Below are positions 37-47,182 of a DNA stretch of 64,000 bases, piece by piece (the stretch's first letter is position 1; every line of letters begins with the position of its first letter). Below the pieces are notes generated by a model, which saw only the letters and a list, made by a program, of their open reading frames with translations, searched no databases and was not told where the DNA came from. Made by a program: the position numbers and the translations under genes. The stretch comes from Gammaproteobacteria bacterium (GTDB taxonomy: Bacteria > Pseudomonadota > Gammaproteobacteria > UBA4575): positions 24,452-88,451 of the forward strand of contig JBGCDS010000010.1 in assembly GCA_045105615.1 (NCBI GenBank), written 5' to 3'.

Positions 37-642
37 TTACTGGTCAAAAGAGCGGGCAAATAAAATACCCTTTTCAACCCATACGTCTACGCCAATACCA
101 TTGACAAAGTGGCGGACTGGCTCCTGCCCCTCTTGCAAATTAGGCAACTCACTAAATAAGTCTTTGTCATACGGCGCTTGATAAACAACTTGGATTCTTC
201 CGGTTGCTTTATCTTGCATACGCAGTTGCGCAGCAGTCTCTCCTTGAATTGAGCAATAACGCCCACCGATGAGTTTTAAATTATTATTGGCCACGAACCG
301 AGATGGGCTCAACGAAAAGTCCAATTTACCAAAGTAAGCTCTCACCTCGTCTAGCGAAGTGCTGGATACTTCCATTGGCTTCATTTTCAAATGATTATAA
401 GAAACTTCTTCAGCGATAATTTGCGACACATCAGCCTGATTAATTAAACCAGCACCCCAGAATAGTCCCAAGGCAAGCGATAACACTAGCACTGCAGCAA
501 TTGCTCTCGCTTTAAATAAACTCTCTTGCTGTTTATTTTCGTGTTTCGCATTAAGCATTTTAGTCAAATCTTGCAACTGCTCACTGTTAAGTTGCTTTGA
601 TTCAACATACTCTTTCACTGTGTTTTTTAATTCTCGCTTCAT
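37..642 (-). CDS. Putative anti-sigma factor: cytoplasmic N-terminus, one TM helix (AIAAVLVLSLALGLFWGAGLI), periplasmic C-terminal domain. Overlaps the upstream ECF sigma gene by 4 bp
   Basis: ORF track. Start ATGA overlaps the sigma-factor stop (639-642). Single hydrophobic segment; position directly downstream of the ECF sigma gene. Confidence 0.5.
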   Translation of the reverse strand: MKRELKNTVKEYVESKQLNSEQLQDLTKMLNAKHENKQQESLFKARAIAAVLVLSLALGLFWGAGLINQADVSQIIAEEVSYNHLKMKPMEVSSTSLDEVRAYFGKLDFSLSPSRFVANNNLKLIGGRYCSIQGETAAQLRMQDKATGRIQVVYQAPYDKDLFSELPNLQEGQEPVRHFVNGIGVDVWVEKGILFARSFDQ

Positions 643-1121
643 GATGCTACTTCCCTGCTCGACCCATCAAACTGTGCTTCGAGTCGCTTTCTTAAACGAT
701 GAATTTTAGATAGCAATGTGCCACGCGGCATCCCCAAAAACTCTGCCAACTCATCTGTTGTGTACCCTTCTACCGCCCAAAAATACATAATCTCACGCTC
801 CAAAGCCGTTAGCTGTTGCCAAACCACTTCGAGCTGATTTTGAGATGCAACAATTCTTTCTAGTGAATTAGTATTCATATCTACATAGGTAACTGTCTCA
901 TCATACTGCTCTTCATCAACCTTTGAATGCTTCCTACGTTCGTCAATATAATGGTTTCGAATAATTGTTTTAATGTAAGCAATCTCATTATCAATATCAC
1001 TATTATCTGCTTTTAAAAACTTCTCAATACTTGACTGCAGAAGGTCGTAGGATTCATGTTCTTCACCCGTTAGCGAAAAGCAGTAACGATACAAACTATT
1101 TAATTGCTTTTCATCAAACAT
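639..1121 (-). CDS. ECF-type RNA polymerase sigma-70 family sigma factor
   Basis: 160 aa. Region-2-like segment (IRNHYIDERRKH) and region-4 HTH (YTTDELAEFLGMPRGTLLSKIHRLRKRL) typical of sigma-24/ECF factors. Confidence 0.8.
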   Translation of the reverse strand: MFDEKQLNSLYRYCFSLTGEEHESYDLLQSSIEKFLKADNSDIDNEIAYIKTIIRNHYIDERRKHSKVDEEQYDETVTYVDMNTNSLERIVASQNQLEVVWQQLTALEREIMYFWAVEGYTTDELAEFLGMPRGTLLSKIHRLRKRLEAQFDGSSREVAS

Positions 1122-1123
1122 AC

Positions 1124-1879
1124 TTAATGTTTAATCCATTTATTTTTGATTAGCTGTTCAAGCGCTGCATTCAAGCGAGGAGCTTCAACAAATAGCTCGG
1201 CAATATCAGACAGTGTTTTTTTATCCTGTATCGCAGTGATCAATCTAAACAGGTCCGCATCTATTTTTCTTAGTGACACTTGATATTGATCTCTGAAAAT
1301 GCATAAGTATTCATGCTCAGCAGCGACTATTGCCTTATTCTCAACAGCATCACTTTGATGCATCTCCCATAACTCGGCGATTGGGTATTCAGATGCAAAT
1401 ACAGACACACTCGCTTGCAAGGAGAAATTCATTTCGCCTGCTTGAGCAGCACATGCGCTTTGAAATTCGGTCATATCCAATTTTATATTATCCGCAGAAA
1501 AATAAACTTCTTGGATTTGCCACTCTAACTGAGCCAAATCAGCGAGGTATTGAAAATCTGTCAGCTCAGCTCTTTGCTCAATTAGCTTTTGAAGAAAAGC
1601 TGGAAATCCGTCTCCATATTGATTTAGATCAAAACTTTTTGATGGATTTTTTTGAACATATGTTTTTGCAATCTGTTTAAAATAATCACTGCCCAATATT
1701 TTTTCACATATTGGATATACACTCATCAATACCGATACATGTAATAATCTTACATTGGTTCGATAAATCTCTATTCTTTCCGACGGCTTTAAATTACCCT
1801 GTTCACATATAGACAACAGTACTGCATTATCAGAATTATATAATGCTGCCCAAAATTCTTTTTGTAAATTAACTAACAT
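1124..1879 (-). CDS. DUF2063 family protein (HvfC/BufC-like putative DNA-binding partner protein of MNIO RiPP systems)
   Basis: 251 aa. Motifs YRTNVR..L..S..YP, NQYGDGFPAFL, YLADLAQLEWQ match the DUF2063 N-terminal domain; sits directly downstream of a DUF2282 peptide gene. Confidence 0.65.
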   Translation of the reverse strand: MLVNLQKEFWAALYNSDNAVLLSICEQGNLKPSERIEIYRTNVRLLHVSVLMSVYPICEKILGSDYFKQIAKTYVQKNPSKSFDLNQYGDGFPAFLQKLIEQRAELTDFQYLADLAQLEWQIQEVYFSADNIKLDMTEFQSACAAQAGEMNFSLQASVSVFASEYPIAELWEMHQSDAVENKAIVAAEHEYLCIFRDQYQVSLRKIDADLFRLITAIQDKKTLSDIAELFVEAPRLNAALEQLIKNKWIKH

Positions 1880-1983
1880 AAATTAATACATATGACATGC
1901 GCAGCTCTTAGAAAATAAACACGGATAATAATCTTTGAACTACGCATGTTTATGTAACCTATTATTAATAATAACTTGGCTGA

Positions 1984-2268
1984 TTACTTAGCAGGTTTTA
2001 CTTTTGCCACTGTACCACCAGTGATTTTTGCACAGGTACCACCTGGGACATAAACCCACTCTGTGTCATCATTATCAATAGTCGCTTGGCCAGCACAGCC
2101 ATGCTTACCATCTAATGCGCCACAATCATTCTTCCCGGCTTTGGCTATACCTGCGCATTTTTCCCACTCTTTAGGTTGATCTGGCACAGCCTGTGCAGAT
2201 GTCGCGGCGAATAGACCGACAGATAGAATTGTAGCGATTGCAGAATCAACAACGATTTTTTTACTCAT
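1984..2268 (-). CDS. DUF2282 family secreted Cys-containing peptide (bufferin/BufA1-like RiPP precursor)
   Basis: 94 aa. Sec signal peptide (..ATSAQA). Core EKCAGIAKAGKNDC...HGCAG...VPGGTCAKITGG with 4 Cys in the spacing typical of DUF2282/bufferin precursors. Confidence 0.7.
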   Translation of the reverse strand: MSKKIVVDSAIATILSVGLFAATSAQAVPDQPKEWEKCAGIAKAGKNDCGALDGKHGCAGQATIDNDDTEWVYVPGGTCAKITGGTVAKVKPAK

Positions 2269-2520
2269 ATTTCGTACTCCAGGATGATTAGTATTATCAC
2301 GAGCAATTGATATTTTTACTTGCTCTCACACCCTAAGACGAAATTGAGATTAACTTGATTGCATGAATTTAAAAATACTCTGGCTACCGGCTCTATGAGG
2401 AGGTCACACACTTATTAACGTGCCGCTTAAGTGATAGGCCCTGGCTTGAGTACCTCAGTTTTAAGTAGCGGAGTCAAGGCCACCTAAAATTACGGAGCTT
2501 TTACTTTGTAAATTTATAAA

Positions 2521-2685
2521 TTACTTGGTTAACAACAATTTATTAGATTTCGTCAATTGTAACAAATAGGTTTCACCTGCATGGCTTATCCATGCATAAC
2601 GCTTACCTTTTAACAGGCTTGTTAGAGACACCGCAGAATTTTGTTGGCCTTGTTGATTAGAGTTAAGTGAAAGATGATTTGTCAT
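2521..2685 (-). CDS. Small hypothetical ORF (54 aa, MTNHLSLNSNQQGQQNSAVSL...). Internal Met of the 77-aa track ORF, preceded by a strong RBS (AGGAGCG, 5 nt spacer)
   Basis: Reverse complement of 2686-2697 gives AGGAGCGCTAAC-ATG. No recognisable domain. Confidence 0.2.
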   Translation of the reverse strand: MTNHLSLNSNQQGQQNSAVSLTSLLKGKRYAWISHAGETYLLQLTKSNKLLLTK

Positions 2686-2796
2686 GTTAGCGCTCCTGAG
2701 TGAGTCTTTAATTACCAATATGTAAATAATAATCGTTCTCATTCGTAATTGCAAACTCTATCCTCGTTATTATCTCTCAGCTGAATTTGCTAAAAA

Positions 2797-3678
2797 TTAA
2801 CTCATTATCTGGGCTAGATTCAAGCCTTCCTTTCCTATTGGCGGACACCAATAATAATTACCAGTGATTGGCTTTGAAAATGTAAACAGTGCATCTGTCA
2901 CATCATCATCTAATCCCACCATTCTTCTTAATTGCATTTCAAATGCATCGAATGAATGACCAAATGAGACAAACATTAGGCCTGATTGTTGATTCTCAAT
3001 CCATGGCATCGAGCGTCTGACCACATAGGCCTGCGGATCGAAATCATCCTGTTCAACTCTTTTAACATGAGCACTTTTAGGTGCATCTGCTATTTCTTCA
3101 TCTGTGGCCTTAGTTCTGCCAATCGTATGATCTTGTTGTTGCACGGATAAATTTTCAAAATGATTTAGGTCGTGCTGCCATTGCTGAACCGCAACGAAAC
3201 TAGAACCATCCATTTTATTACTCTCACCGGACATTAACGCAGCTTGCAGAGCTAATTCATCCTTAGGATTTTCTGTACCATCTTGATAGCCAGTCAAATC
3301 CATGCCGTCACCATATTTAAATCCATCTACCACGTGAATCAATTCAAACGCTGGCTTGGCTATCACTTCGATCGCACGACCTCGATGTAGCAATTCGCCT
3401 AAATCATCACCACGCAACCAAAACCAGAGATCACCAGGAGTTGCTGACATAGGCACAGGCGCTTTACTTAATTCGGGAAACAGGTGTAATCCAGGCACCT
3501 CTTTATGCAATGTTGTTGCGACTTTAATACCTATCCCCATCACTACATTTTTACCATCAACCATATGCGATAAAGATGTCAGTACACTTTTTAATTCAAT
3601 AGGGTTTGTGATACCAAAAGTTAAATATCGTGAGCGTACGGGGACATCTAGAAATATAGCGGGTTGACCTGTGTGCAT
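2797..3678 (-). CDS. Dyp-type haem peroxidase (YfeX/EfeB-like, cytoplasmic class)
   Basis: 293 aa. GYQDGTENP motif and overall DyP family similarity. Confidence 0.75.
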   Translation of the reverse strand: MHTGQPAIFLDVPVRSRYLTFGITNPIELKSVLTSLSHMVDGKNVVMGIGIKVATTLHKEVPGLHLFPELSKAPVPMSATPGDLWFWLRGDDLGELLHRGRAIEVIAKPAFELIHVVDGFKYGDGMDLTGYQDGTENPKDELALQAALMSGESNKMDGSSFVAVQQWQHDLNHFENLSVQQQDHTIGRTKATDEEIADAPKSAHVKRVEQDDFDPQAYVVRRSMPWIENQQSGLMFVSFGHSFDAFEMQLRRMVGLDDDVTDALFTFSKPITGNYYWCPPIGKEGLNLAQIMS

Positions 3679-3755
3679 AAGTAAAACTCAATATAATATT
3701 AGTAATCGTATTATAACCATCAACCTAGTCATAACGAATAAGTTGATAGATAAGC

Positions 3756-5540
3756 CTATCCTGTTTGCTGGCGACCGTATAGTTTAGTGTATAAACCATT
3801 AGACCCTAGAAGCTCCTCATGACTACCGTGCTCACTGATCATGCCATCGTCAAACACAAATACTCTATCAGCCTGCTTCACAGCACTAAGTCGATGCGCC
3901 ACAATAATAGTCGTTCTATCCTGCAAAAACGACTGCAAGGATTCATGCACACGCGCTTCAGTATCAGCATCCAACGCTGAAGTAGCTTCATCAAGAATGA
4001 CTACATTAGGGTTAGTTAACGCCATACGCGCGATTGCAATACGTTGACGTTGACCACCAGACAATCTAATTCCATCCATCCCTAAGATGCTATCTAAGCC
4101 ACGAGGCATTTGCTCGACGATATCTCGTATCTGTGCAACTTCTAATACTTCCCAAAGCTGTTCATCTGGCACATCTCTGCCTAGAGTTAAATTCATACGA
4201 AGTGAATCGTTAAATAGTGCAGGATGTTGCAACACGCAAGAAACATGCTCTCGCACAACCTCCATACCTATTTTTTGCATCGACACACCATTAAATTTAA
4301 TCTCTCCAAATAATGGTGGATACAACCCAAGAAGCACTTGGACGAGTGTAGACTTACCTCCACCACTCGCACCGACTAATGCTACTTTTTCACCAGCCGC
4401 AATAGAAAGGTTGACGCCATTAAGTACATAAGGCCCATCACCATAGGCAAACTTAATACCTTCTATATCCACAGCCATACCTTTTTGCTTAAGGAATGGA
4501 TTTAGCTCGTGCTCATAAACCGGTTCATTAGGCAGATACATTAATTCATTAATACGCCCTAATGCAGCCTTTGCACTAAAGTATGAATATTGAATATTCA
4601 ACACATCTTGCACCGGCCCCATCATGAACCAAAGATAGCCAAACACCGCAATCATTTCACCAATAGATAACCCAGCAAATAACACCATTGCCATGCCGAC
4701 AGCACGAAAAACATCAAATCCAACTAAAAAGATAACAAACGACAAACGATTAGCAGCATCGCTTTTCCATGAATAAGCCGCCGAGTGATCACGCACTTTT
4801 GCAGCCAATTTATCAACGCGCGATAGGTAAAACTTCTCCCGATTACTTGCTCTAATTTGCTGAATACCATCGAGTGTTTCAGTCAATGCCTGTTGAAATA
4901 TCTCGAAGGCTTTATTTTCATTCTTTTTTAAATTCTTAACACGTTTACCCATCACCATCGTGAAATAAATCACCACGGGATTCATCAAAAGTATAAATAG
5001 TGCTAATTGCCAGTGCAGCCAGAGCAAAATCGCAGCCACGCCAATAATAGTTAACACTGAAACAATAACTTTACTGACTGTCTCACCAGCAAAACTATCA
5101 ACTGTATTCAAATCCGTAACAAATAAAGATGAAACAGTACCACTGCCAACTGTTTCATATTCTGACATGGCTATAGACTGCAATCTGTTTAGCAATTGCG
5201 AACGAATTTTATAAACAACATTTTTAGAGATACCAACAAACTTTTTAGTCTGCCATAGGTTAAGCAGCACTGAGGTAACTCTAAGGATAACGGTGATGAC
5301 CAAAATCCCTGCAATATAAAATAGCGGACTATGATCTGAACTCGATGACAACCAATCAAACGCGGCAACCACCTTGCCTGGTTGATCAAGTAAAATCTCA
5401 TCAACCAGTAGTGGAATCAATAATGGAATCGGCACGCTAGCCAACACTGCAAATATTGCGATAATGTTGGCTACTACTAAAGTACGCCGATGCTGCAACG
5501 CCAACTGAACAATATATTTAAATGTATATGTTGCTGGCAT
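3756..5540 (-). CDS. ABC transporter fused permease/ATP-binding protein (exporter type, MsbA/multidrug-like)
   Basis: 594 aa. N-terminal 6-TM domain; Walker A GASGGGKST; signature LSGGQRQRIAIAR; Walker B ILDEATSALD. Confidence 0.85.
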   Translation of the reverse strand: MPATYTFKYIVQLALQHRRTLVVANIIAIFAVLASVPIPLLIPLLVDEILLDQPGKVVAAFDWLSSSSDHSPLFYIAGILVITVILRVTSVLLNLWQTKKFVGISKNVVYKIRSQLLNRLQSIAMSEYETVGSGTVSSLFVTDLNTVDSFAGETVSKVIVSVLTIIGVAAILLWLHWQLALFILLMNPVVIYFTMVMGKRVKNLKKNENKAFEIFQQALTETLDGIQQIRASNREKFYLSRVDKLAAKVRDHSAAYSWKSDAANRLSFVIFLVGFDVFRAVGMAMVLFAGLSIGEMIAVFGYLWFMMGPVQDVLNIQYSYFSAKAALGRINELMYLPNEPVYEHELNPFLKQKGMAVDIEGIKFAYGDGPYVLNGVNLSIAAGEKVALVGASGGGKSTLVQVLLGLYPPLFGEIKFNGVSMQKIGMEVVREHVSCVLQHPALFNDSLRMNLTLGRDVPDEQLWEVLEVAQIRDIVEQMPRGLDSILGMDGIRLSGGQRQRIAIARMALTNPNVVILDEATSALDADTEARVHESLQSFLQDRTTIIVAHRLSAVKQADRVFVFDDGMISEHGSHEELLGSNGLYTKLYGRQQTG

Positions 5541-5578: not shown

Positions 5579-5953
5579 CTATTCGCTTTCTTTTTTCTCT
5601 TCTTCATCCATTGATGCGCGAACTTGATCCATATCTAGTCCTTTTACCTTCTCAATAATATCTTCCAGCTGCGCGGGTGCTAATGCCCCTGCTTGGTTGA
5701 ATAATAAGATTTGTTCCCTGAATATCATCAACGTTGGTATAGATCTGATTTGGCATGCCTGGCCCAGTTCTGTTTGCTCTTCAGTATTCACCTTTGCAAA
5801 GGTAACATCGGTATGATTTTCAGACGCCATTTCAAATGTTGGCGCAAAAGATTTACACGGTCCACACCATTCTGCCCAGAAATCAATAATGACAATATTA
5901 TTTCCTTGGATTGTATCGTTAAAATTATCAGAATTAAGCTCCAGCGTGGCCAT
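5579..5953 (-). CDS. Thioredoxin
   Basis: 124 aa. WCGPC active site; acidic C-terminal tail. Confidence 0.85.
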   Translation of the reverse strand: MATLELNSDNFNDTIQGNNIVIIDFWAEWCGPCKSFAPTFEMASENHTDVTFAKVNTEEQTELGQACQIRSIPTLMIFREQILLFNQAGALAPAQLEDIIEKVKGLDMDQVRASMDEEEKKESE

Positions 5954-5961
5954 AGTGTCTC

Positions 5962-6564
5962 CTAGTTATTAAAATTTCCTTGCGAATAATAGTATTCAAT
6001 ATCCATCAATACATCTCGTAGATTTTCTAAACGCACCAAGGGATTATCAATCTCAAGAATACGTTGTTTTTGTTCTAATTCAAACGGCAAATATTCCGTC
6101 AGCCTAGCCGCAACCCAATGTGCACTGTGCAAATGTTGACTTTGCAAGCTGAACGGCTCACCCAATTCTTTTATAATCACAGATAGCAAATGCCCCCACT
6201 CCTCAAAGATTTCGGGAAGCGCTTCATCGTCATCTTGTTGCAGATAATCCACCTCCGCAATAATCAGCTGATTAGCCTGTACTTGTGTGGATTTTATCAC
6301 TATTCTTGATTGACCTTGAACGGTCACCCCTAACAAACCATCAGGCAAGGTTTCCCAGTCAATAATACGGCAAGAAGTTCCCACATTCTGATGTTTTGCC
6401 GCATTTCCCACTTCACGTCCATCTTTAATCAAGCAGATAATAAATTCGCTTTGGTTACGTGAACACTCTTTCACCATATCCAAATAACGTGATTCAAAAA
6501 TTCTCAGTGGTAACACGCCGCCTGGGAAAATCACTGAATTTAACGGAAACAAAGGAAGATTCAT
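5962..6564 (-). CDS. Stand-alone Lon N-terminal (LON substrate-binding) domain protein
   Basis: 200 aa. N-terminus MNLPLFPLNSVIFPGGVLPLRIFESRYLDMV matches the Lon N domain. Confidence 0.7.
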   Translation of the reverse strand: MNLPLFPLNSVIFPGGVLPLRIFESRYLDMVKECSRNQSEFIICLIKDGREVGNAAKHQNVGTSCRIIDWETLPDGLLGVTVQGQSRIVIKSTQVQANQLIIAEVDYLQQDDDEALPEIFEEWGHLLSVIIKELGEPFSLQSQHLHSAHWVAARLTEYLPFELEQKQRILEIDNPLVRLENLRDVLMDIEYYYSQGNFNN

Positions 6565-6566
6565 AT

Positions 6567-7817
6567 TTAACTTACTGTATAGAAAATTCTATCCAACATA
6601 AAATGAAAAAAATACGCTTGAGTAGCTGCCGAGCTCTCCAATAGATTTGATTTTGATACACGCAACACTTGAGACTTCACTAGCGCCTCACAACGATAGT
6701 TAGAAAATTGCTTAGACAAAATATTATCAGACAACCACTGTTTTGCATTTATAGTAAAATGCTGACCTTCAGTCACTAACAGAGCCTTCCCTTCTATGAG
6801 ACACAGATACTCATCCAACAATTGCTCATTAAAAATTATATCACCGCTATTAACGGACGAAATTTCTAAGCAATTAGCTAACTCATGAAGTACTTCCAAA
6901 TTACTATCTTCAAATATCTCAAATTTTTTAAGTTGATCTGTATCTAAGTCTTCATAGTTATTTTCATTAGTACTAATTTGATCTGCCACAATTAAAATCT
7001 CAGTCTCAAATTCTGCTGCCGAATTAAATCTATTTTCAGGTTGTTTAGTTAGCGCTTTTACAAGCAATGCTTTCAACGATTCTGGGTGGATGTCTTCTAT
7101 TGCCTCTGGCTCACTGCCAATAATTTTATACAACACGGCGTGTGCATCATCACCAGAGAAAGGCAAATCGCCGACAATCATTTCATATAATAATACGGCT
7201 ACTGAAAATAGATCACTCAATTCATTTGCTAACGTACCATCAATTAATTCTGGCGCCATGTAGGATGGTGTTCCCATTAGCCCCGAATCATCAGCCTCAC
7301 CCGAATTTAATATAGAAATTCCAAAATCTACTACTTTCACCTGCTCATTTTGAGTAATCATTATATTGCTTGGCTTAATATCACGATGAATAATATTTTT
7401 TGTATGCGCGTAATCTAACGCATGACAAATCTGCGCAGCAATATTCAATGCTGTGCTAATAGGCAAAGATTTCTTCCGCTTTAAAAGCGCTAACAAACTC
7501 TCGCCTTGGATATATTCCATGACAATATAGCCTTCATAATCACCAATTCCTGCATCGTATACTGAGACAATATTTTGATGTTGCAATCGTCCAATTGCCT
7601 GCGCTTCAGCATAGAACAAATCATTAGCTACTAAGTCTTCATCTCCACTGGGATCAAACAATTGAATGACTTTTATTGCGACCTTGCGGTCAAGGAATGG
7701 ATCATAAGAACAAAACAAAGTGCGCGTCGGCTGAGTACGCACAGCTTCTTCTAAAGAAAATTTTCCGATGTTTCCAGTAGAAGCTAAACTTCTCCTACGT
7801 TGCCGTCTTTCAAGCAA
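6567..7817 (-). CDS. Hanks-type Ser/Thr protein kinase with C-terminal cyclic-nucleotide-binding-like domain
   Basis: 416 aa. VAIK, HRDIKPSN, DFG, APE motifs. C-terminal ~120 aa resemble a CRP/cNMP-binding beta-barrel (GDIIFNEQ...CLIEGKALLV). Confidence 0.75.
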   Translation of the reverse strand: MLERRQRRRSLASTGNIGKFSLEEAVRTQPTRTLFCSYDPFLDRKVAIKVIQLFDPSGDEDLVANDLFYAEAQAIGRLQHQNIVSVYDAGIGDYEGYIVMEYIQGESLLALLKRKKSLPISTALNIAAQICHALDYAHTKNIIHRDIKPSNIMITQNEQVKVVDFGISILNSGEADDSGLMGTPSYMAPELIDGTLANELSDLFSVAVLLYEMIVGDLPFSGDDAHAVLYKIIGSEPEAIEDIHPESLKALLVKALTKQPENRFNSAAEFETEILIVADQISTNENNYEDLDTDQLKKFEIFEDSNLEVLHELANCLEISSVNSGDIIFNEQLLDEYLCLIEGKALLVTEGQHFTINAKQWLSDNILSKQFSNYRCEALVKSQVLRVSKSNLLESSAATQAYFFHFMLDRIFYTVS

Positions 7818-40613: not shown

Positions 40614-40698
40614 GCCGGGGTGGCGGAATTGGTAGACGCGCCGGATTCAAAATCCGGTTTCTTCGGAAGTGCGAGTTCGATTCTCGCCCTCGGCACCA
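40614..40698 (+). tRNA. tRNA-Leu (anticodon CAA), class II with long variable arm, CCA encoded
   Basis: Cloverleaf readable: acceptor GCCGGGG/CCTCGGC, anticodon stem CCGGA/TCCGG, loop TTCAAAA, long variable arm. Confidence 0.85.
40644..40698 (+). repeat. attL: 55-bp 3' segment of tRNA-Leu, duplicated exactly at 47128-47182
   Basis: Exact 55-bp direct repeat read by eye in both places. Confidence 0.75.
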
Positions 40699-40799
40699 TT
40701 TAAAAACAGATAGTTACGCAAACACGATCGATCGAACAATTTTTTAAATGTGTTTACGGGGGAGTTATAGGGGATTGCGCATCGTTTACTCATAAAATC

Positions 40800-41720
40800 C
40801 TATCGTGCAGGATTATTAAAATGCTTCACTAGCGCCACTCCATTATGATTCTCAATTAACTTATATGCAGACGTATTCATTATCGTATGCATGAAGCAAT
40901 GGTGCACAGTTAGCACTAAATCCTGCAATTCTGAGTTTGCTTCTAAATCCTCAATTTTCAATCCCAATTCTTTACACTCGTCAATATGTATATGTCTATC
41001 ATGTTGCCGGTTGGTGTCGATTGCAGACAATTTATCTGTTATGTGCCTCGCCTTTTCTTCGGCGTCGGTTTCTCCCTCAAACATACATGTGACCAATTGC
41101 TTCTGCACAAAATCGTTTGCCAGCTTAACTGTATCCTCAACCGTTTTAAAAAATCCAATAGCATATTTGTTAAGTATTGGATGCCATATAAGCGCTCTAG
41201 CCTGATCAGTTTTCATTTCATCGTATGCTTGCTGAAATTCATCAAGTATGGAATATGCTGAAGTACCATTAATTTGCGGATCAATTGGCCCCAAGTTTGA
41301 TTGCTTACCCATCACTATAGATTTACAAGAGCATGACATGATCGTTCCTGCTGACATAGAAATCTGCGGCACAATTGCCCTGATATTATTGCCAAACATT
41401 CTGTGCAAATAGTCAATCAACGATTGAGATGCTGCTAGAGAGCCGCCCGGAGTATGGAGAATCAGATCCAAACCCAAACTTCTATCCATCTGATGCACAG
41501 CCATCATTAACCCATTTTTATCTTCATCTGTTATGGACATTTCTTGAGAATATGGCTTACTCAACCAACCCGAGTAATAACAGATGACGTTTCTATTTGT
41601 AAATCCAAAAAGTTCTTGCAAATATTTTCTTCTAATAGTGTCCGATACAGAAATTATTGCATTCTCATGCTGTTTAATTAATTGATTATGTTCAGTTAAG
41701 ATCTCATTCCAATTTGGCAT
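40800..41720 (-). CDS. SDH-family (serine dehydrogenase proteinase, ClpP/crotonase-fold, S49-like) serine protease, stand-alone cargo of the island
   Basis: 306 aa. Similarity to Clp-fold SDH/SppA-like proteases (LHTPGGS..., GPIDPQ segments). Confidence 0.6.
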   Translation of the reverse strand: MPNWNEILTEHNQLIKQHENAIISVSDTIRRKYLQELFGFTNRNVICYYSGWLSKPYSQEMSITDEDKNGLMMAVHQMDRSLGLDLILHTPGGSLAASQSLIDYLHRMFGNNIRAIVPQISMSAGTIMSCSCKSIVMGKQSNLGPIDPQINGTSAYSILDEFQQAYDEMKTDQARALIWHPILNKYAIGFFKTVEDTVKLANDFVQKQLVTCMFEGETDAEEKARHITDKLSAIDTNRQHDRHIHIDECKELGLKIEDLEANSELQDLVLTVHHCFMHTIMNTSAYKLIENHNGVALVKHFNNPAR

Positions 41721-42359
41721 TTTATTACCCTATTTTTACTTTATATCGACTCGCCTGATAGATTTGTTGCATTACGTGCTATATTTAAAATCTCAATAAA
41801 GTACTGTTACTAAAAAGAATCGACATACTGATTACATTCAATAATCTAATATAGCCATATAAAAATCATGAAAAGTGATACTAATACAACCATTATTGAA
41901 AAACACAAATATATTGACTCAACAATCGATCAGTATATTTCTGAGCATGGTCCAGAATTCTTTGGCTCACGCAGCATCTCGGTCAGCATTGATGGATCTG
42001 GAGTGCTAAAAAATCTTATTAACAATCTCGAGCAACCCGAAAGAGAGTCATTTGTATCATCAAATGCTTTTTTACTGGACTGATTTAGTTTCAGACTAGA
42101 GATTGAGCCATTCCAGCGGCTTACTGAATTTTTCAAAGTTGGCGCAAGCCTAAGACCATACCGGAAGTATATTTCTCAATCATTCTGCTTGAATTATTAA
42201 CATCCACTCCCCTTAAACTCCCCCATTTTCAGCAGCATAAAAGGTCTAACGCGCTATTGCTAGCCTATAAAGCATGAAGTCACAAGATTATATATCCTGT
42301 GTTGCCATATATTGGGCTTTGTTGTAGGTTATATCTAAGATTAATTTCAGGCCAAATAC

Positions 42360-43421
42360 ATGGCTCACATCGAAGCCCGTACAGATAAAAAAGGCAAAAC
42401 TCGCTACCGCGTTCAGATAAGACTAAAAGGACACCCAACTCAGTCAGCAACTTTCGAACGCAAAACTGATGCTAAGAAATGGGCACAAGACACCGAATCA
42501 GCGATTCGAGATGGCCGTCATTTTAAAACTGTTGAGTCAAAACGACATACTGTCGGCGAAATGTTAGATCGATACATCAAGACCGTACTTCCCAAAAAAG
42601 GTAAAAATCAATCTAACCAGAAACCTCAACTCGAATGGTGGAAGGAGAAAATTGGGGGCTATCTACTTGCAGACGCAACACCATCTCTAATTGCTGAACA
42701 CCGCGATATGCTTCAAGAAGACAAAACGCACATGGGGACCAAGCGATCCCCTTCCACCGCCAACAGATACCTTGCTGCGCTCTCTCACTGCTTCACAGTA
42801 GCTGTTAATGAGTGGGAATGGCTAGATGACTCCCCCATGCGAAAAGTGCGCAAATGCAAAGAACCACGAGGCCGGGTGAGATTCTTATCTGATGATGAAA
42901 GAAAACGATTACTCCTTGCATGCCAAGAAGTTGAGAATGGAAGTCTGTACCCTATTGTTGTGCTGGCCCTCTCTACGGGTGCTAGACAATCAGAAATACT
43001 CACATTGAAATGGAAACAGGTGAATTTAAAGCGCGGCCAAATTACATTATTTGACACAAAGAATGACGAAATTCGCTCAATCCCACTAGTTGGCCACGCT
43101 CACGAGATAATTCAACGGCTATCGCAAATTCGAAGAATTGATTCTGATCTACTTTTCCCAGGGAAAAGAAATAAAAAATCACCAACCACTATACGAGCTG
43201 CCTGGGAAAAAGCGCTTGAAATTGCTGAGATTGAAGATTTCCGCTTTCATGACCTCAGACATAGTGCAGCATCCTATCTCGCCATGAGCGGCGGCACACT
43301 CGCTGAGATCGCAGACATATTAGGACACAAGACACTGCAAATGGTGAAGAGGTATGCGCACCTTTCAGATAGTCATAACAGCAAGGTTGTATCAAAAATG
43401 AATGATCAAATTTTTAGCTGA
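42360..43421 (+). CDS. Tyrosine-type site-specific recombinase/integrase (phage integrase family, N-terminal arm-binding domain)
   Basis: 353 aa. Catalytic R (TGARQSE), HxxR (HDLRHS), H (LGH), Y (RYAHL). Confidence 0.9.
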   Translation: MAHIEARTDKKGKTRYRVQIRLKGHPTQSATFERKTDAKKWAQDTESAIRDGRHFKTVESKRHTVGEMLDRYIKTVLPKKGKNQSNQKPQLEWWKEKIGGYLLADATPSLIAEHRDMLQEDKTHMGTKRSPSTANRYLAALSHCFTVAVNEWEWLDDSPMRKVRKCKEPRGRVRFLSDDERKRLLLACQEVENGSLYPIVVLALSTGARQSEILTLKWKQVNLKRGQITLFDTKNDEIRSIPLVGHAHEIIQRLSQIRRIDSDLLFPGKRNKKSPTTIRAAWEKALEIAEIEDFRFHDLRHSAASYLAMSGGTLAEIADILGHKTLQMVKRYAHLSDSHNSKVVSKMNDQIFS

Positions 43422-43423
43422 AA

Positions 43424-43939
43424 ATGGCTTCCAATAAATTCACAGGGAAGCTCAATAAGAGACTAATAGATAGAAGTCGCGAATTAACCGTAGCTCTCCT
43501 CAGAGATGACATAAATAAGCAGAATCAAATCTCCCAGGAGATTAACGAAGAGATCAATGAAAAATTGAGCTTACTTTGCGAACACTATGGACTCTTTGAC
43601 ATAGAACCACAGGAAAAACTGTTATATGAACTCTCACTCTCGCTTGCGAGAGACTTCGTGCCTGGATTCAAGCTAGAAAACAAAGTAGGTGCACCCACAA
43701 AATGGTCCCTAGGAGTGCTACAGGACCTTTATAACACTGTAAATACTCTTAGGTCCTCTAGATCACCTAGAGGTAGCGTCAATTGGGCTTGTATACAGCT
43801 CGCAAGACAAGAGCAATGGAAATCAATTATAAAACAAGAGTCTACATCTCCCGAAAAGGTACTTGAAAGCTACTACTACAAAGCAAAAAATAGCCAAGCA
43901 GCACTCGCGAAGTCATTTAAAAATAAAGTTCTGAAATAA
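43424..43939 (+). CDS. Hypothetical protein, translationally coupled to the integrase
   Basis: 171 aa, no recognised domain; start 3 bp after the int stop. Confidence 0.4.
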   Translation: MASNKFTGKLNKRLIDRSRELTVALLRDDINKQNQISQEINEEINEKLSLLCEHYGLFDIEPQEKLLYELSLSLARDFVPGFKLENKVGAPTKWSLGVLQDLYNTVNTLRSSRSPRGSVNWACIQLARQEQWKSIIKQESTSPEKVLESYYYKAKNSQAALAKSFKNKVLK

Positions 43940-44053
43940 TACAAAATCCAATTTTTTAAGGATTACTCTTTTACGCGTCATTGTTCCCAACTGCTCAAGC
44001 AAGTAGGTGCTTGGCAACAGGAAGCAACAATAAATACGCATAAAGGTAATCAT

Positions 44054-44266
44054 ATGAGCTCATCAAATTTATTCACTGTACGTCAATTCTCAGAAAAACA
44101 TCGCGCATTCTCAGAGGGTGGCATTAGATGGCAAATCTTTAATTCAGACAAAAATGGTCTTGGTAAGTCTGGTGCAATTCTTCGCATTGGAAGAAAAATT
44201 TTGATCAATGAAGATAAGTATCTGGACTGGCTATATGACTCTAATCAACTCAAGTTAATTGACTAG
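44054..44266 (+). CDS. Small HTH DNA-binding protein (excisionase/AlpA-like)
   Basis: 70 aa. LFTVRQFSEKH.....IRWQI pattern typical of MerR/Xis-type HTH. Confidence 0.45.
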   Translation: MSSSNLFTVRQFSEKHRAFSEGGIRWQIFNSDKNGLGKSGAILRIGRKILINEDKYLDWLYDSNQLKLID

Positions 44267-44278
44267 AAAGCTAAGATA

Positions 44279-44770
44279 ATGCCATCAAAAGACAGACTAA
44301 AAGTCAAAGGCAGAAAAATTAGCGGGGGTTTTGTAGCTTTCCCACATGATTGCTTGAATCACGTAAATTTCATTATATTGTCCCCTTATGCAGTAAAACT
44401 CCTAGTGGACTTATACAGTCAATATAGAGGCAAAAATAATGGCGACCTATGTATGACTTGGTCAATGATGAAAAACCGTGGGTGGAGATCTGAAGCAACT
44501 TTAAACAAGGCTAGACATGAATTAATACATTACGGGTGGATCACTCTCACTCGGCAAGGTGGTCGAAATGCAGCAAGCTTGTATGCAGTGACATGGCAAT
44601 CTATCGATGAGTGTAAAGGCAAACTTGATGCTAGGGCCACTAACGTTGCATCAGGCGCCTGGAAAGAACCAAAAATGCCATTTCTAAAAACTAAAAAATC
44701 AAAACGAGTACTACGCGATCCGTATCAACCTACTACGCCTAAAGTAGTAAAAATAGGAGTTATACCTTGA
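44279..44770 (+). CDS. Putative winged-helix replication-initiator-like protein
   Basis: 163 aa. LSPYAVKLLVDLYSQ....GD...SMMKNRGWRSEATLNKARHELIHYGWI resembles the Rep/wHTH N-terminal domains of mobile elements. Confidence 0.35.
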   Translation: MPSKDRLKVKGRKISGGFVAFPHDCLNHVNFIILSPYAVKLLVDLYSQYRGKNNGDLCMTWSMMKNRGWRSEATLNKARHELIHYGWITLTRQGGRNAASLYAVTWQSIDECKGKLDARATNVASGAWKEPKMPFLKTKKSKRVLRDPYQPTTPKVVKIGVIP

Positions 44771-44908
44771 TACGATTTTTAATTACATCATCTGATGAAT
44801 TAATGTAGCCAATTTTCAGCAATTCGCTACTACACATGCTGCATACCTTTATATAAATATACCATGTAGTGCAGCATTTATTTTCATTGCAATAGCAAGG
44901 AATTAACA

Positions 44909-45319
44909 ATGCCATTTAAAAAAGGTCAATCAGGAAATCCAAAAGGTCGCAAACCCGGCTTAAGCAACCAGGCCAAGTTTCGAGGACTAATCGAAGCGCA
45001 CATTCCCTCTCTCGTCGATACCGTTGTTAAAAAAGCATTAGCAGGCGATATGACTGCTATGAAAATTTGCATTGACCGTGTATGTCCACCACTCAAAGCA
45101 AGAGATGAATTAATCAAGATCAATAAAATGGGCTCTCAACAATTACTAGATCAAGCAAACACTGTTTTGCTCGAGATGCACTCTGGGAAAATTAGCCCAA
45201 CTGAAGCTGGAAGTATTATGCGTGTTCTCGAATCTAAGACTAAAATTTTGGAAATCGTTGACCTAACGGCGCGAATTGAAGAATTAGAAAATTTTGCGAA
45301 TAATGGAAATAAGCCATGA
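44909..45319 (+). CDS. DUF5681-like phage/mobile-element protein (N-terminal GNPKGRKPG motif)
   Basis: 136 aa. KGQSGNPKGRKPG motif. Confidence 0.45.
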   Translation: MPFKKGQSGNPKGRKPGLSNQAKFRGLIEAHIPSLVDTVVKKALAGDMTAMKICIDRVCPPLKARDELIKINKMGSQQLLDQANTVLLEMHSGKISPTEAGSIMRVLESKTKILEIVDLTARIEELENFANNGNKP

Positions 45320-45582
45320 GTATCCATAGAAGAATAAATAAACTTGAGGAGAAAATTTACCCTCCCAAGAAAATTAAACCTCCCCGTATTATCATGATTG
45401 GTATTGATGAAACGCAAGAGCAAGCATATAAGCGTCAAGTAACAGATAAAAATATCGACCGCAGTGATTTTGGCCAGCTTATTTGTATACGATTCACAAA
45501 TTCTAAAAATCCATTTCTAGGTGATGACGTAAAGCCTAAGGAGCTTGGAAGTAACCTCACACACCCTACTTGGAAATATTGA
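45316..45582 (+). CDS. Hypothetical protein (ATGA overlap with the upstream gene)
   Basis: 88 aa, basic N-terminus. Coupling to the upstream ORF. Confidence 0.3.
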   Translation: MSIHRRINKLEEKIYPPKKIKPPRIIMIGIDETQEQAYKRQVTDKNIDRSDFGQLICIRFTNSKNPFLGDDVKPKELGSNLTHPTWKY

Positions 45583-45737
45583 TGATCTTGAACTAAACAA
45601 GCCCCATCAGATAAACTCATGAACACCTTAACGGTATTAGTCAATGACTGCTTTCGACCCAAAGAGGACATGTGTTACTAATGTTTCTATTGAACTTATG
45701 ATTATAATGATAGTAGCGAACAACTAAAAAATGTGAA

Positions 45738-45992
45738 ATGAAGAGTAAAAGCCAAAAATTAGTCTGGTCTTACCTGCTTGCGTCTTTATTTGTGGCCAGT
45801 GCATATACCTATATGGTAGTTGATACGTTTTTAAGAACAGGAGAATTTTGTATAAGCATGCCTGGTCGAGGCTCAACTTCTCAGGGCTGTTTATCTGAAT
45901 TTGCTCCTATTTTTATTGGTATAACTATTTTCTGGTTGGGTTGTGCAGTTCATTTTTTATTATTAGGCCTTAACAAAAGAGGTTTATGGTAA
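45738..45992 (+). CDS. Small hypothetical membrane protein (2 TM)
   Basis: 84 aa with two hydrophobic helices. Confidence 0.35.
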   Translation: MKSKSQKLVWSYLLASLFVASAYTYMVVDTFLRTGEFCISMPGRGSTSQGCLSEFAPIFIGITIFWLGCAVHFLLLGLNKRGLW

Positions 45993-46091
45993 GAAAATAA
46001 AAAGGTCAGACTTGTTGATATATAGGCGACATACAAAGACATTACACTTGAAACATAAAAGTTTAATTTTATTGTTAGCGAATGACCGCTA

Positions 46092-46595
46092 TTGAGCCGT
46101 AAAGTGACAAATAAGACACCCATGAAAACAACCAATGTAATCACATTAATAATATTTTTATTGACGGGGTGCGGTTTATCGAACTCAGAAATTGGTATGT
46201 GTTATCCACAGGGAAATCACTTAGATTTATTTACAGAGGAATTAGATAAGCGAGGCATTACCTATACTAACGATGCTCAAAATCCTGAGTGTGTAAATAT
46301 GATGAACATATCGGATGAAGATGTCCAAGAAATACAAGACTATGTTTTTGGAATTTCTCCACCAGCTAAATATAGTCGTGCATTTAAAATTTCAGGCTTT
46401 CTTGAGTCAACGAATGATCTTAGCGATCTAGAAAACATTGAATATAAGAATGATAATTTGCGTGCAATAAATATACTTGAGGAAAATGATATCAAAGTGA
46501 AAACTATGGTCTATTTTGGTACAGAGCATATTGTTTGGAATAAGAAGGACGATGTGCGAGTAAGAGAGTTGCTAAACTTAGAGCCTCCCAAATGA
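46092..46595 (+). CDS. Hypothetical lipoprotein (lipobox LLTGC). True start probably the internal ATG (MKTTNVITLIIFLLTGCG)
   Basis: 167 aa. Signal peptide plus lipobox Cys. Confidence 0.5.
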   Translation: MSRKVTNKTPMKTTNVITLIIFLLTGCGLSNSEIGMCYPQGNHLDLFTEELDKRGITYTNDAQNPECVNMMNISDEDVQEIQDYVFGISPPAKYSRAFKISGFLESTNDLSDLENIEYKNDNLRAINILEENDIKVKTMVYFGTEHIVWNKKDDVRVRELLNLEPPK

Positions 46596-46601
46596 CCGCT
46601 A

Positions 46602-46958: not shown

Positions 46959-47127
46959 CTGCTTTTGCGTCGGTAGCATTATCAAATTAAGTTAAGGGGA
47001 CTTACGGGGGAAATTTCAACAACCTCTGACAATAATTGACTACTATCCCCAATCAAACAATTAGGTTAACTTCTTGATTTTGATATTGGAGTTTATGGCG
47101 GTTGATGGTGACATGTTGCTCTTGGAT

Positions 47128-47182
47128 GATTCAAAATCCGGTTTCTTCGGAAGTGCGAGTTCGATTCTCGCCCTCGGCACCA
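47128..47182 (+). repeat. attR: 55-bp direct repeat of the tRNA-Leu 3' end
   Basis: Exact copy of 40644-40698. Confidence 0.75.

What the first reader, a model, noticed from the sequence alone, without database searches (positions are those of the whole stretch)
37..2268. Bufferin-type (DUF2282) RiPP precursor with DUF2063 partner and ECF sigma/anti-sigma pair, but no MNIO (DUF692) enzyme in the operon
The 94-aa secreted peptide has the DUF2282/bufferin architecture: a Sec signal then EKC..NDC..HGCAG..GTC with four Cys. The next gene is a clear DUF2063 (BufC/HvfC-like), followed by a translationally coupled ECF sigma/anti-sigma pair. That combination is characteristic of the copper-related bufferin/NGO1945-type loci.

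In described loci the precursor is followed by a DUF692 multinuclear non-haem iron oxidase that converts the Cys residues to thiooxazoles. Here only about 100 bp separate the precursor and the DUF2063 gene, so no MNIO can be encoded in cis. Possible explanations are an MNIO supplied in trans, a decayed locus, or a DUF2282 peptide that works unmodified (for example as a thiol-based Cu binder under ECF control).
Basis: partly seen in the sequence, partly recalled or inferred. Interest (0 to 1): 0.6.

Follow-up and report, generated by a model that had tools for sequence, protein, structure and literature searches.

The report
Bufferin operon that lost its enzyme
This copper-peptide (bufferin) operon had its peptide-modifying iron enzyme gene cut out long ago, yet a whole clade of uncultured marine bacteria has kept the peptide, the enzyme's helper protein and the regulators intact, so either the enzyme is supplied from elsewhere or these parts work without it.

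Summary
On the minus strand lie BufA1/DUF2282 (2268..1984), a DUF2063 partner (1879..1124), an ECF sigma (1121..639) and a putative anti-sigma (642..37). No MNIO/DUF692 gene is in the operon, the 64-kb window or about 6 kb past its start.

It is a deletion derivative of a five-gene bufA-bufB-bufC-sigma-antisigma operon. Relatives carry that operon at the same chromosomal site, between hemP/Dyp and hemL. The 104-nt spacer is a scar: the first ~26 codons of bufB joined just upstream of bufC, with about 0.8 kb removed.

The scar keeps an RNA hairpin that also exists at the 5' end of intact bufB genes and shows compensatory changes.

At least 10 independent assemblies share the deletion, and the members with flanking genes form one clade. 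Synonymous sites are mostly saturated, yet bufA (dN/dS ~0.04) and bufC (~0.12-0.15) remain under purifying selection. bufC is no more relaxed than in MNIO-containing relatives. A conserved ECF-type promoter precedes bufA. The locus is therefore in use, not simply decayed.

No close BufB homologue lies on the contigs carrying these loci, including one of 2.4 Mb. A distant MNIO in trans could not be excluded, so trans maturation and enzyme-independent function remain nearly equally likely.

The parts
1984..2268 (-). bufA: Buf1-type bufferin precursor (DUF2282), 94 aa. It has a Sec-type signal peptide ending in AQA, followed by VPDQP, and four Cys in EKC / NDC / HGCAG / GTC.
   Evidence: PF10048 at 80.5 bits. 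The core is invariant, with all four Cys, in MNIO-less and MNIO-containing orthologues. dN/dS is about 0.04. The signal peptide was read from the sequence and not tested with a predictor.
1880..1983 (-). bufB scar. The 104-nt spacer is homologous to the first ~26 codons of the MNIO gene of orthologous loci (start codon through the G-L-R-x-P-H motif). It is joined a few nt upstream of the bufC start, with about 780-790 bp deleted.
   Evidence: Alignment A3 of 8 MNIO-less spacers with the 5' ends of bufB from L008, L055, L056 and L010. blastn of the spacer against L008. Spacer lengths are 73-109 nt in MNIO-less loci against 884-928 nt in MNIO-containing loci.
1896..1948 (-). Conserved RNA hairpin inside the scar. 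The 5' arm CATGCGTAGTTC lies at 1948..1937 and the 3' arm GAGCTGCGCATG at 1907..1896. The same helix exists at the 5' end of intact bufB genes, where the 5' arm covers the start region and the 3' arm encodes GLRxP.
   Evidence: RNA fold -29.6 kcal/mol, z = -4.3, 0 of 200 shuffles as stable. Across 12 loci, 92.4% of cells are paired and 7 of 12 pairs change on both sides; 0-1 of 500 shuffles reach this, and slid controls give 17-50% paired.
1873..1947 (-). Relic mini-ORF of 24 codons. It starts at the old bufB ATG and its stop codon overlaps the bufC start (ATGTTAG). It may be left-over translational coupling to bufC, which has no obvious Shine-Dalgarno sequence.
   Evidence: The frame is open and ends +7 to +19 nt past the bufC ATG in 5 of 8 MNIO-less loci, and is interrupted in L004, L058 and L005. 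This is suggestive only, because four of the five are close relatives.
1124..1879 (-). bufC: DUF2063-type MNIO partner protein, 251 aa. It has a helical N-terminal half and a C-terminal half of beta strands and helices.
   Evidence: PF09836 at 76.2 bits on residues 5-96. AlphaFold2 model with mean pLDDT 79.9. The best PDB fold match is TglI of the TglHI MNIO holoenzyme, 8hi7_A, E 4e-5, TM 0.54. dN/dS is 0.12-0.15. dN relative to the ABC gene is the same as in MNIO-containing relatives.
639..1121 (-). ECF-type sigma factor, 160 aa. It starts 2 nt after the bufC stop.
   Evidence: Sigma70_r2 and r4_2 hits. TIGR02937 at 51.1 bits, above the 42.9 cut-off. dN/dS is about 0.055.
37..642 (-). Putative anti-sigma factor, 201 aa. 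It is a single-pass membrane protein with a ~135-aa periplasmic domain containing the invariant motif GGRYCSIQG..AAQ.R. It overlaps the sigma gene by 4 nt.
   Evidence: No Pfam or NCBIfam hit of its own. It sits in the same position in about 40 buf loci. Three of 22 orthologues match DUF3379, best E 9e-6. There is no PDB relative. The anti-sigma role is inferred from context.
2336..2362 (-). ECF-type promoter candidate upstream of bufA: GCAATC-N15-TCGTCT.
   Evidence: These are the only invariant blocks just upstream of bufA in 11 orthologous loci. The motif occurs once in the 64-kb window against 0.03 expected. It occurs once per locus, always 60-100 nt upstream of bufA, in 21 loci including distant orders. 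Promoter function is inferred.

Best explanation
**What it is.** This is a Buf1 bufferin operon of the bufA-bufB-bufC-ECF sigma-antisigma type. Its MNIO gene, bufB, was removed by a single internal deletion of about 0.8 kb in the ancestor of a small clade of uncultured, small-genome marine Gammaproteobacteria.

**What remains.** The deletion left the first ~26 codons of bufB. These carry an RNA hairpin that sits just after bufA in intact operons too, and was probably kept because it sets bufA mRNA stability or downstream translation.

**Inferred working.** The remaining unit is still in use.
- The sigma factor drives a conserved ECF-type promoter in front of bufA.
- BufA is made and exported by Sec.
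- BufC, whose only known job is to present the precursor to an MNIO, is kept under unchanged constraint.

**Most likely mechanism.** BufC hands BufA to an MNIO encoded elsewhere in the genome, from another MNIO gene cluster. The two central Cys would then still become thiooxazoles and the peptide would still buffer periplasmic copper.

**Shown and inferred.** Shown here:
- gene identities;
- the deletion and its scar;
- shared ancestry of the deletion;
- purifying selection;
- conservation of the hairpin;
- conservation of the promoter motif.

Inferred: expression, the sigma/anti-sigma circuit, and above all the trans MNIO.
For: **Deletion of an ancestral five-gene operon**
- The site mpl-kinase-lonN-trx-ABC-Dyp-hemP-[operon]-hemL carries bufA-MNIO-bufC-sigma-antisigma in L008, L056, L055 and L010 (L055 and L010 end at a contig edge within bufC).
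- The same site carries bufA-bufC-sigma-antisigma in the window, L004, L005, L007, L009, L057, L058 and the P0018 locus. The P0011/L006 lineage has bufA-bufC but has also lost the sigma gene.
- The spacer aligns to the 5' end of bufB.
- The flank-gene tree makes the MNIO-less set monophyletic in 167 of 200 bootstraps, with L008 as sister.

**Still functional**
- All ORFs are intact, with dS mostly above 1. dN/dS is 0.04 for bufA, 0.12-0.15 for bufC, 0.055 for sigma and 0.10 for the anti-sigma.
- dN(bufC)/dN(ABC) is 3.2-7.1 (mean about 4.9) inside the MNIO-less clade, against 4.4 for the MNIO-containing pair L008-L056.
- The N-terminal DUF2063 half is still the more conserved half.
- The BufA core, including the residues around the two Cys that are modified in Caulobacter, is unchanged.
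- The promoter motif is invariant and the hairpin is retained with compensatory changes.

**Favouring trans supply**
- BufB and BufC are both required and sufficient for modification, and copper binding needs the heterocycles (PMC11626156).
- BufC folds like TglI, an MNIO partner.
- Only 21 of 4072 complete genomes with DUF2282 lack any MNIO, and many precursors are not next to an MNIO gene (PMC12452194).
Against: - No MNIO was found anywhere in the sequence that could be read: the 64-kb window, the flanks, and +/-6 to 10 kb in seven relatives.
- Neither the 120 best matches to a BufB profile nor the 120 closest homologues of the sister clade's BufB (down to 49% identity) lie on any contig carrying an MNIO-less locus. 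One of those contigs is 2.4 Mb, larger than the complete 2.16-Mb chromosome of the sister MAG.
- These genomes are small, so a second MNIO cluster is not a given.
- MNIO enzymes normally pair with a cognate partner encoded beside them, so the cross-pairing required here is unproven.
- Related lineages show further erosion of the locus. The sigma gene is gone in the P0011/L006 lineage, and only fragments remain in L054.
Confidence: 0.42

Rival explanations
1. Enzyme-independent system. No MNIO acts on this BufA. The exported 4-Cys mini-protein works unmodified, for example as a thiol/disulfide-based periplasmic metal or redox buffer, or as the ligand sensed by the anti-sigma factor. BufC has an MNIO-independent role, such as a cytoplasmic chaperone holding the precursor export-competent through its RRE-like half, or a regulatory partner.
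For: - No MNIO is in cis or in any readable flank.
- No BufB-like protein lies on the 2.4-Mb, 902-kb, 185-kb or 108-kb contigs among the best 120 hits of two searches.
- The genomes are small (about 2.1-2.4 Mb) and the ancestral operon was the one at this site.
- bufA and bufC are nevertheless under purifying selection at an unchanged relative rate.
- PMC12452194 reports 21 complete genomes with DUF2282 and no MNIO at all.
Against: - In Caulobacter, unmodified BufA1 does not bind copper usefully, and the PTMs require both BufB1 and BufC1 (PMC11626156).
- No MNIO-independent activity is known for any DUF2063 protein.
- The BufA core shows no shift in its conservation pattern after the loss. An altered chemistry might be expected to cause such a shift.
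- Absence of MNIO from the whole genome was not shown.
Confidence: 0.35
2. Slowly decaying remnant. Loss of bufB inactivated the pathway, and the remaining genes are on their way out. They look intact only because too little time has passed, or because of weak residual constraint such as the sigma/anti-sigma pair being needed for other targets.
For: - Further erosion is seen in relatives at the same site. The P0011/L006 lineage lacks the sigma gene, and L054 keeps only a 40-codon bufA fragment and anti-sigma fragments.
- bufC is the fastest-evolving gene of the locus.
Against: - Pairwise dS within the MNIO-less clade is mostly above 1, yet 8 of 8 sequenced bufC genes are full length (251-255 aa) with dN/dS 0.12-0.15, and bufA has dN/dS 0.04.
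- bufC evolves equally fast relative to the ABC gene in MNIO-containing relatives (4.4 against about 4.9).
- The non-coding hairpin and the promoter are also conserved.
- Neutral decay over this divergence would have produced stops and frameshifts.
Confidence: 0.15
3. Assembly or binning artefact: the MNIO gene is present in the real genome but was collapsed out of the MAG contig.
For: The window comes from a metagenome-assembled genome. Some relatives show split genes that may be sequencing errors, such as Dyp in L007 and lonN in L008.
Against: - The same junction, with the same scar, occurs in at least 10 independent assemblies from different projects and platforms: NCBI, ENA, JGI and three Logan runs.
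- The scars have diverged from one another by substitution and small indels.
Confidence: 0.01

Closest known systems
Orthologous five-gene operon bufA-bufB(MNIO)-bufC-ECF sigma-antisigma in sister MAGs (L008 = OX638335.1, L056, and contig-end-truncated L055) and in Shewanella spp. (e.g. L021)
   Same: - The chromosomal site is the same in L008, L055 and L056.
- Gene order, the ECF promoter motif, the 5'-bufB hairpin and the anti-sigma family are the same.
- BufA is 86-90% identical to the sister MAGs and about 70% identical to Shewanella.
   Different: Here bufB is missing except for its first ~26 codons.
Caulobacter vibrioides buf1ABCD with sigF/nrsF (Leprevost et al. 2024, PMC11626156)
   Same: - A DUF2282 precursor with a Sec signal and four Cys.
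- A DUF2063 partner.
- ECF sigma control, and a link to copper and metal stress by homology.
   Different: - No MNIO and no DoxX (bufD) here.
- The sigma and anti-sigma genes are inside the operon.
- The anti-sigma is a single-pass DUF3379-like protein, not the multi-pass NrsF.
Stand-alone Buf1 precursor genes not linked to MNIO genes (PMC12452194, sections 14 and 20)
   Same: A DUF2282 precursor without an adjacent MNIO. That paper also leaves open whether such peptides are modified in trans or not at all.
   Different: - Here the MNIO partner BufC and the regulators are retained with the precursor, a layout that paper does not describe.
- The deletion event, its scar and the subsequent purifying selection can be shown directly here.
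TglHI / MbnBC / HvfBC-type MNIO-partner holoenzymes
   Same: The BufC model's best structural match is TglI in the TglHI holoenzyme (8hi7_A, E 4e-5).
   Different: Sequence identity is only 12-14%. No enzyme subunit is encoded next to it here.

Membership tests
Buf1 bufferin precursor (DUF2282 / BufA1) | Match to PF10048 above the gathering score | tested here: met
   80.5 bits against 22.4, residues 35-86.
Buf1 bufferin precursor (DUF2282 / BufA1) | Four conserved Cys (first and last form a disulfide; the central two are PTM targets) | tested here: met
   The Cys in EKC, NDC, HGC and GTC are invariant in 25 aligned BufA sequences, including this one.
Buf1 bufferin precursor (DUF2282 / BufA1) | N-terminal Sec signal peptide | tested here: inconclusive
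   Read from the sequence only: MSKK, a hydrophobic stretch, then AQA before VP. The pattern is conserved in all orthologues. No signal-peptide predictor was available.
Buf1 bufferin precursor (DUF2282 / BufA1) | Central Cys converted to 5-thiooxazoles | not testable with these tools
   Needs mass spectrometry or NMR of the exported peptide.
Bufferin biosynthetic gene cluster (bufA-bufB-bufC, with or without bufD) | MNIO (PF05114/DUF692) gene adjacent to the precursor | tested here: not met
   The spacer is 104 nt. No MNIO was found by profile hmmsearch --max or tblastn in the window and flanks, while the control scored 434 bits. Only a ~26-codon relic remains.
Bufferin biosynthetic gene cluster (bufA-bufB-bufC, with or without bufD) | DUF2063 partner gene in the cluster | tested here: met
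   PF09836 at 76.2 bits.
Bufferin biosynthetic gene cluster (bufA-bufB-bufC, with or without bufD) | MNIO present somewhere in the same genome | not testable with these tools
Partial result: no BufB-like protein on the contigs with MNIO-less loci among the 120 best hits of two searches.
Bufferin biosynthetic gene cluster (bufA-bufB-bufC, with or without bufD) | DoxX (bufD) gene, an optional core member | tested here: not met
   The four operon ORFs have other identities, and the next gene is a convergent aminotransferase. DoxX is also absent from the MNIO-containing orthologues.
DUF2063-RRE MNIO partner (PME-type 1; BufC / HvfC / NGO1945) | N-terminal DUF2063 domain | tested here: met
   PF09836 on residues 5-96. 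Family-invariant motifs are conserved.
DUF2063-RRE MNIO partner (PME-type 1; BufC / HvfC / NGO1945) | C-terminal RRE-type domain and overall partner fold | tested here: met
   The AlphaFold2 model (pLDDT 79.9) has strands and helices at residues 158-245. A full-length fold match to TglI, 8hi7_A, gives E 4e-5 over 250 columns. A weak RRE match to TbiB1, 5v1u, gives E 2.1.
DUF2063-RRE MNIO partner (PME-type 1; BufC / HvfC / NGO1945) | NCBIfam HvfC equivalog score | tested here: not met
   45.8 bits against a cut-off of 142. It is a relative, not an HvfC equivalog.
ECF sigma factor | Regions 2 and 4 only, and a TIGR02937 match | tested here: met
   PF04542 and PF08281 hits in a 160-aa protein. 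TIGR02937 at 51.1 bits against 42.9.
NrsF-type anti-sigma (PF06532), as in Caulobacter bufferin loci | Match to PF06532 and a multi-pass membrane protein | tested here: not met
   No Pfam hit for the 201-aa protein. Three of 22 orthologues match DUF3379 instead. A single hydrophobic segment was read from the sequence.

The most novel reading that the evidence does not exclude
These bacteria have no MNIO at all. If so, a bufferin precursor and its DUF2063/RRE partner have been maintained by selection for a long time without the enzyme. That would reveal an MNIO-independent function for both proteins. BufA could be an unmodified thiol-based periplasmic metal or redox buffer, or the signalling ligand of the ECF circuit. 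BufC could be a precursor chaperone or regulator.
Probability: 0.35. Interest if true: 0.7.

Novelty: new variant of a known kind. Interest (0 to 1): 0.5.

Why it matters
Bufferins are the largest family of MNIO-modified RiPPs. Published work holds that copper binding needs the thiooxazoles installed by BufB together with BufC.

This clade is a natural, ancient bufB knockout in which bufA, bufC and the regulators are still under selection, with enzyme-containing sister lineages as controls.

The clade makes two open questions directly testable:
- Can a DUF2063 partner recruit a non-cognate MNIO encoded elsewhere?
- Do DUF2282 peptides and DUF2063 proteins have functions without the enzyme?

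The locus also exposes a conserved RNA hairpin at the bufA/bufB junction. It was retained even after its coding role vanished, which points to post-transcriptional control of the precursor-to-enzyme ratio in this operon type.

Tried and rejected
**1. MNIO hidden in the window or just beyond its start.** Rejected. tblastn and a BufB-profile hmmsearch --max on six-frame translations found nothing. The genes beyond the window start are hemL-like, thiE, thiD, rubredoxin, pfkB, Csp and GFA.

**2. The 251-aa protein as a fused or disguised enzyme.** Rejected. It has normal partner length, a DUF2063 domain and a TglI-like fold.

**3. MNIO-less as the ancestral state.** Rejected. The spacer is homologous to the 5' end of bufB, and the outgroups L008, L056 and L010 have the gene.

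**4. A burst of bufC divergence after the loss.** A first impression came from the 52%-to-26% identity gap. Rejected: that gap is a search-sensitivity effect. L008 bufC is an ordinary orthologue, and the relative rates are unchanged.

**5. The hairpin as a repeated REP- or MITE-like element.** Rejected. The arm sequence is not repeated elsewhere in the window beyond chance.

**6. The hairpin as a classical intrinsic terminator.** Not supported. There is no T-run, and the consensus scan did not call it.

**7. A relocated cognate bufB.** Not found on the contigs that carry the locus.

**8. Rfam match for the spacer or the upstream element.** None.

**9. PDB sequence searches for bufC and the anti-sigma.** No informative hit.

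**10. Supplementary Table S4 of PMC12452194 (genomes lacking MNIO).** The file is not held.
Full report
**1. What is there**

Four co-directional ORFs lie on the minus strand of the window.
- A 94-aa DUF2282/BufA1 precursor at 2268..1984 (PF10048, 80.5 bits).
- A 251-aa DUF2063 protein at 1879..1124 (PF09836, 76.2 bits).
- A 160-aa ECF sigma factor at 1121..639 (sigma-70 regions 2 and 4; TIGR02937 at 51.1 bits, above its 42.9 cut-off).
- A 201-aa single-pass membrane protein at 642..37 that overlaps the sigma gene by 4 nt.

The last protein has no family hit of its own. Three of 22 orthologues weakly match DUF3379 and none matches NrsF, so its anti-sigma role is inferred from position.

The bufA-bufC spacer is 104 nt. 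No MNIO is encoded in the 64-kb window or in the 6 kb beyond its start. tblastn with a Shewanella MNIO found nothing. A BufB-profile hmmsearch --max over all six frames gave a best E of 0.65, while the positive control scored 434 bits.

**2. What it really is: a bufB deletion**

A scan of species-representative genomes with BufA returned 48 loci. In Shewanella and many other Gammaproteobacteria the layout is bufA-MNIO-DUF2063-ECF sigma-antisigma, with the same anti-sigma family as here.

Relatives of the window's organism carry an operon at exactly the same chromosomal site: mpl-kinase-lonN-trx-ABC-Dyp-hemP-[operon]-hemL(convergent)-thiE.
- Four of them have the MNIO: L008 (a complete 2.16-Mb MAG chromosome), L056, L055 and L010. 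L055 and L010 end at a contig edge within bufC.
- Others have the MNIO-less layout: the window, three Logan contigs of the same organism, L004 (a 2.4-Mb contig), L005, L007, L009, L057, L058 and the P0018 locus. The P0011/L006 lineage has bufA-bufC but has also lost its sigma gene.

A neighbour-joining tree of four flank proteins (1348 columns) makes the MNIO-less set monophyletic in 167 of 200 bootstraps, with L008 as sister. A second, shorter data set was less decisive (68 of 200).

Aligning the spacers with the 5' ends of the intact bufB genes shows that the whole spacer is a bufB relic. It runs from the bufB start codon through the codons of the invariant G-x-G-L-R-x-P-H motif, then joins a few nucleotides upstream of the bufC start. 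The spacer is 73-109 nt in MNIO-less loci and 884-928 nt in MNIO-containing loci. About 780-790 bp were therefore removed, most simply in one event.

**3. The scar contains a conserved RNA hairpin**

The relic folds into a 12-13-bp stem. In the window the arms lie at 1948..1937 and 1907..1896, with a fold energy of -29.6 kcal/mol and z = -4.3.

The same helix can form in the intact bufB genes. There the 5' arm covers the bufB start region and the 3' arm encodes GLRxP. Across 12 loci:
- 92.4% of cells pair;
- 7 of 12 pairs show changes on both sides;
- 0-1 of 500 column shuffles reach the observed values;
- slid registers give 17-50% pairing.

In the MNIO-less clade the 3' arm no longer encodes anything, yet it stays complementary. 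Selection therefore acts on the RNA structure. The hairpin is not followed by a T-run and was not called as a terminator.

I infer that it stabilises the bufA message or throttles translation of what follows. That is a common arrangement in RiPP operons, but this step is inference.

In 5 of 8 MNIO-less loci a 22-30-codon ORF starts at the old bufB ATG and stops +7 to +19 nt past the bufC ATG (window 1947..1873). bufC has no evident Shine-Dalgarno sequence, so this may preserve translational coupling. Four of the five loci are close relatives, so the point is only suggestive.

**4. Is the locus alive?**

Pairwise synonymous divergence inside the MNIO-less clade is mostly saturated (dS above 1). 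The closest pair, the window and L007, has dS of 0.55-0.77.

All eight sequenced bufC genes are nevertheless full length. dN/dS values are as follows:

| Gene | dN/dS |
|---|---|
| bufA | about 0.04 |
| bufC | 0.12-0.15 |
| ECF sigma | 0.055 |
| anti-sigma | 0.10 |
| flanking housekeeping genes | 0.02-0.10 |

bufC is the fastest-evolving gene of the locus, but this is intrinsic to the gene.
- dN(bufC)/dN(ABC) is 3.2-7.1 (mean about 4.9) within the MNIO-less clade.
- It is 4.4 for the MNIO-containing pair L008-L056, and 4.4-5.1 for MNIO-less loci against L056.
- The ratio is higher, 6.2-8.4, for MNIO-less loci against L008. That leaves room for a modest burst on the branch separating them.
- The N-terminal DUF2063 half remains the more conserved half.

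The BufA core, including KNDCGALDGKHGCAGQ around the two Cys that are modified in Caulobacter, is essentially identical in MNIO-less and MNIO-containing orthologues.

Upstream of bufA, the only invariant blocks in 11 orthologous loci form an ECF-type promoter candidate, GCAATC-N15-TCGTCT (window 2362..2336).
- It is unique in the window, against 0.03 matches expected by chance.
- It occurs once per locus in 21 loci, including distant orders.

The AlphaFold2 model of BufC (mean pLDDT 79.9) best matches TglI, the partner subunit of the TglHI MNIO holoenzyme (8hi7_A, E 4e-5, TM 0.54).

These data argue against simple decay. Some erosion does occur in neighbouring lineages. The sigma gene is deleted in the P0011/L006 lineage, and only a 40-codon bufA fragment and anti-sigma fragments remain in L054.

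**5. Where is the enzyme?**

This is the unresolved point.

Two searches of the 5.8-billion-protein collection were run. One used a profile of 22 BufB proteins and the other used L008 BufB alone. Each found about 8000 MNIO homologues but lists only the best 120.

Those lists contain the BufB of L008 and about 30 clusters of its close orthologues. None of the listed proteins, down to 49% identity with L008 BufB, lies on a contig of the lengths that carry MNIO-less loci (2,402,513; 902,182; 184,643; 108,015; 91,530; 74,367; 41,091; 32,218; 28,240 bp).

A relocated cognate bufB is therefore not on those contigs, including one larger than the sister clade's complete chromosome. A more distant MNIO from another cluster type would fall below the listing cap, and the whole genomes could not be read with the available tools.

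**6. Reading against the literature**

- A survey of MNIO clusters notes that sizeable proportions of bufferin precursors are not next to an MNIO gene.
- The same survey found that only 21 of 4072 complete genomes with DUF2282 lack an MNIO altogether. It leaves open whether such precursors are modified in trans or not at all (PMC12452194, sections 14 and 20).
- That paper does not describe a precursor kept together with its DUF2063 partner but without the enzyme.
- Among the 48 species-level loci examined here, this layout occurs only in this one clade.

**7. Verdict**

Well supported (about 0.95): an ancient, single, internal deletion of bufB from a five-gene ECF-controlled Buf1 operon, with the remaining four genes, the promoter and the junction hairpin retained under selection.

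The mechanism of the remnant is uncertain. I rank the explanations as follows:

| Explanation | Probability |
|---|---|
| Maturation by an MNIO encoded elsewhere, with BufC as adaptor | about 0.42 |
| Enzyme-independent function of BufA and BufC | about 0.35 |
| Slow decay | about 0.15 |
| Assembly artefact | about 0.01 |

The first is only slightly ahead. It fits the unchanged constraint on BufC and on the BufA core, and the rarity of MNIO-free genomes. The second fits the failure to find any BufB-like gene on long contigs of these small genomes.

The finding is a new variant of a known kind. Its value is as a natural bufB knockout with matched enzyme-containing sister lineages.

Noticed in passing
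window 2370-2490 (minus strand), between hemP and the bufA promoter; also L004, L005, L007-L010, L055-L058: A ~110-130-nt non-coding element that is very highly conserved, with invariant blocks TACTCAAGCCAGG, GACCTCC and GTAGCCAGAGTATTT. It folds with a long closing stem (GAGGTACTC...GAGTA) followed by a T-run. It has no Rfam match at E<=1, and its 3' part is duplicated in L056. It could be an sRNA or a structured hemP 3' end.
   Followed up: partly
L006 (JGI Ga0535625_0241832) and the P0011 locus on ERZ4113377; L054 (CBDHFH010000002.1) about 5900-7000: The same locus is eroded further in relatives. In one lineage the ECF sigma gene is deleted and a shortened anti-sigma (173 aa) follows bufC directly. 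In L054 only a 40-codon bufA fragment and two anti-sigma fragments remain, although the promoter motif is still present.
   Followed up: partly
L001 7199-8107 (about 5-6 kb beyond the window start); also L057 16926-17834: A Csp (PF03860, copper storage protein family) gene followed by a GFA-family gene lies a few kb downstream of the operon in some clade members. It is absent from that position in L004, L005 and L058.
   Followed up: no
window 40614-47404: A probable small integrated island. In order it holds tRNA-Leu(caa) at 40614-40698, an SDH-type ClpP-like protease gene (40800-41720, minus strand), a tyrosine integrase (42360-43421, PF00589 at 113 bits), several small ORFs with no family, and tRNA-Arg(cct) at 47328-47404. 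Strand orientation and GC skew switch here.
   Followed up: partly
window 54162-55435: Two adjacent paralogous small FHA-domain proteins of 175 and 207 aa with similar N-termini.
   Followed up: no
window 2521-5540 (minus strand) and all orthologous loci: hemP, a Dyp-type peroxidase and an ABC exporter-type protein always sit immediately upstream of the buf operon, in MNIO-containing and MNIO-less lineages alike. A functional link (haem or iron with copper) was not examined. Dyp is split in L007 and in the P0011 locus, which may reflect pseudogenes or sequencing errors.
   Followed up: no
L009 6285-6372: In L009 the bufB relic ORF overlaps the called bufC start and ends +19 nt past it. The spacer is only 74 nt, so the true bufC start there is uncertain.
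   Followed up: no
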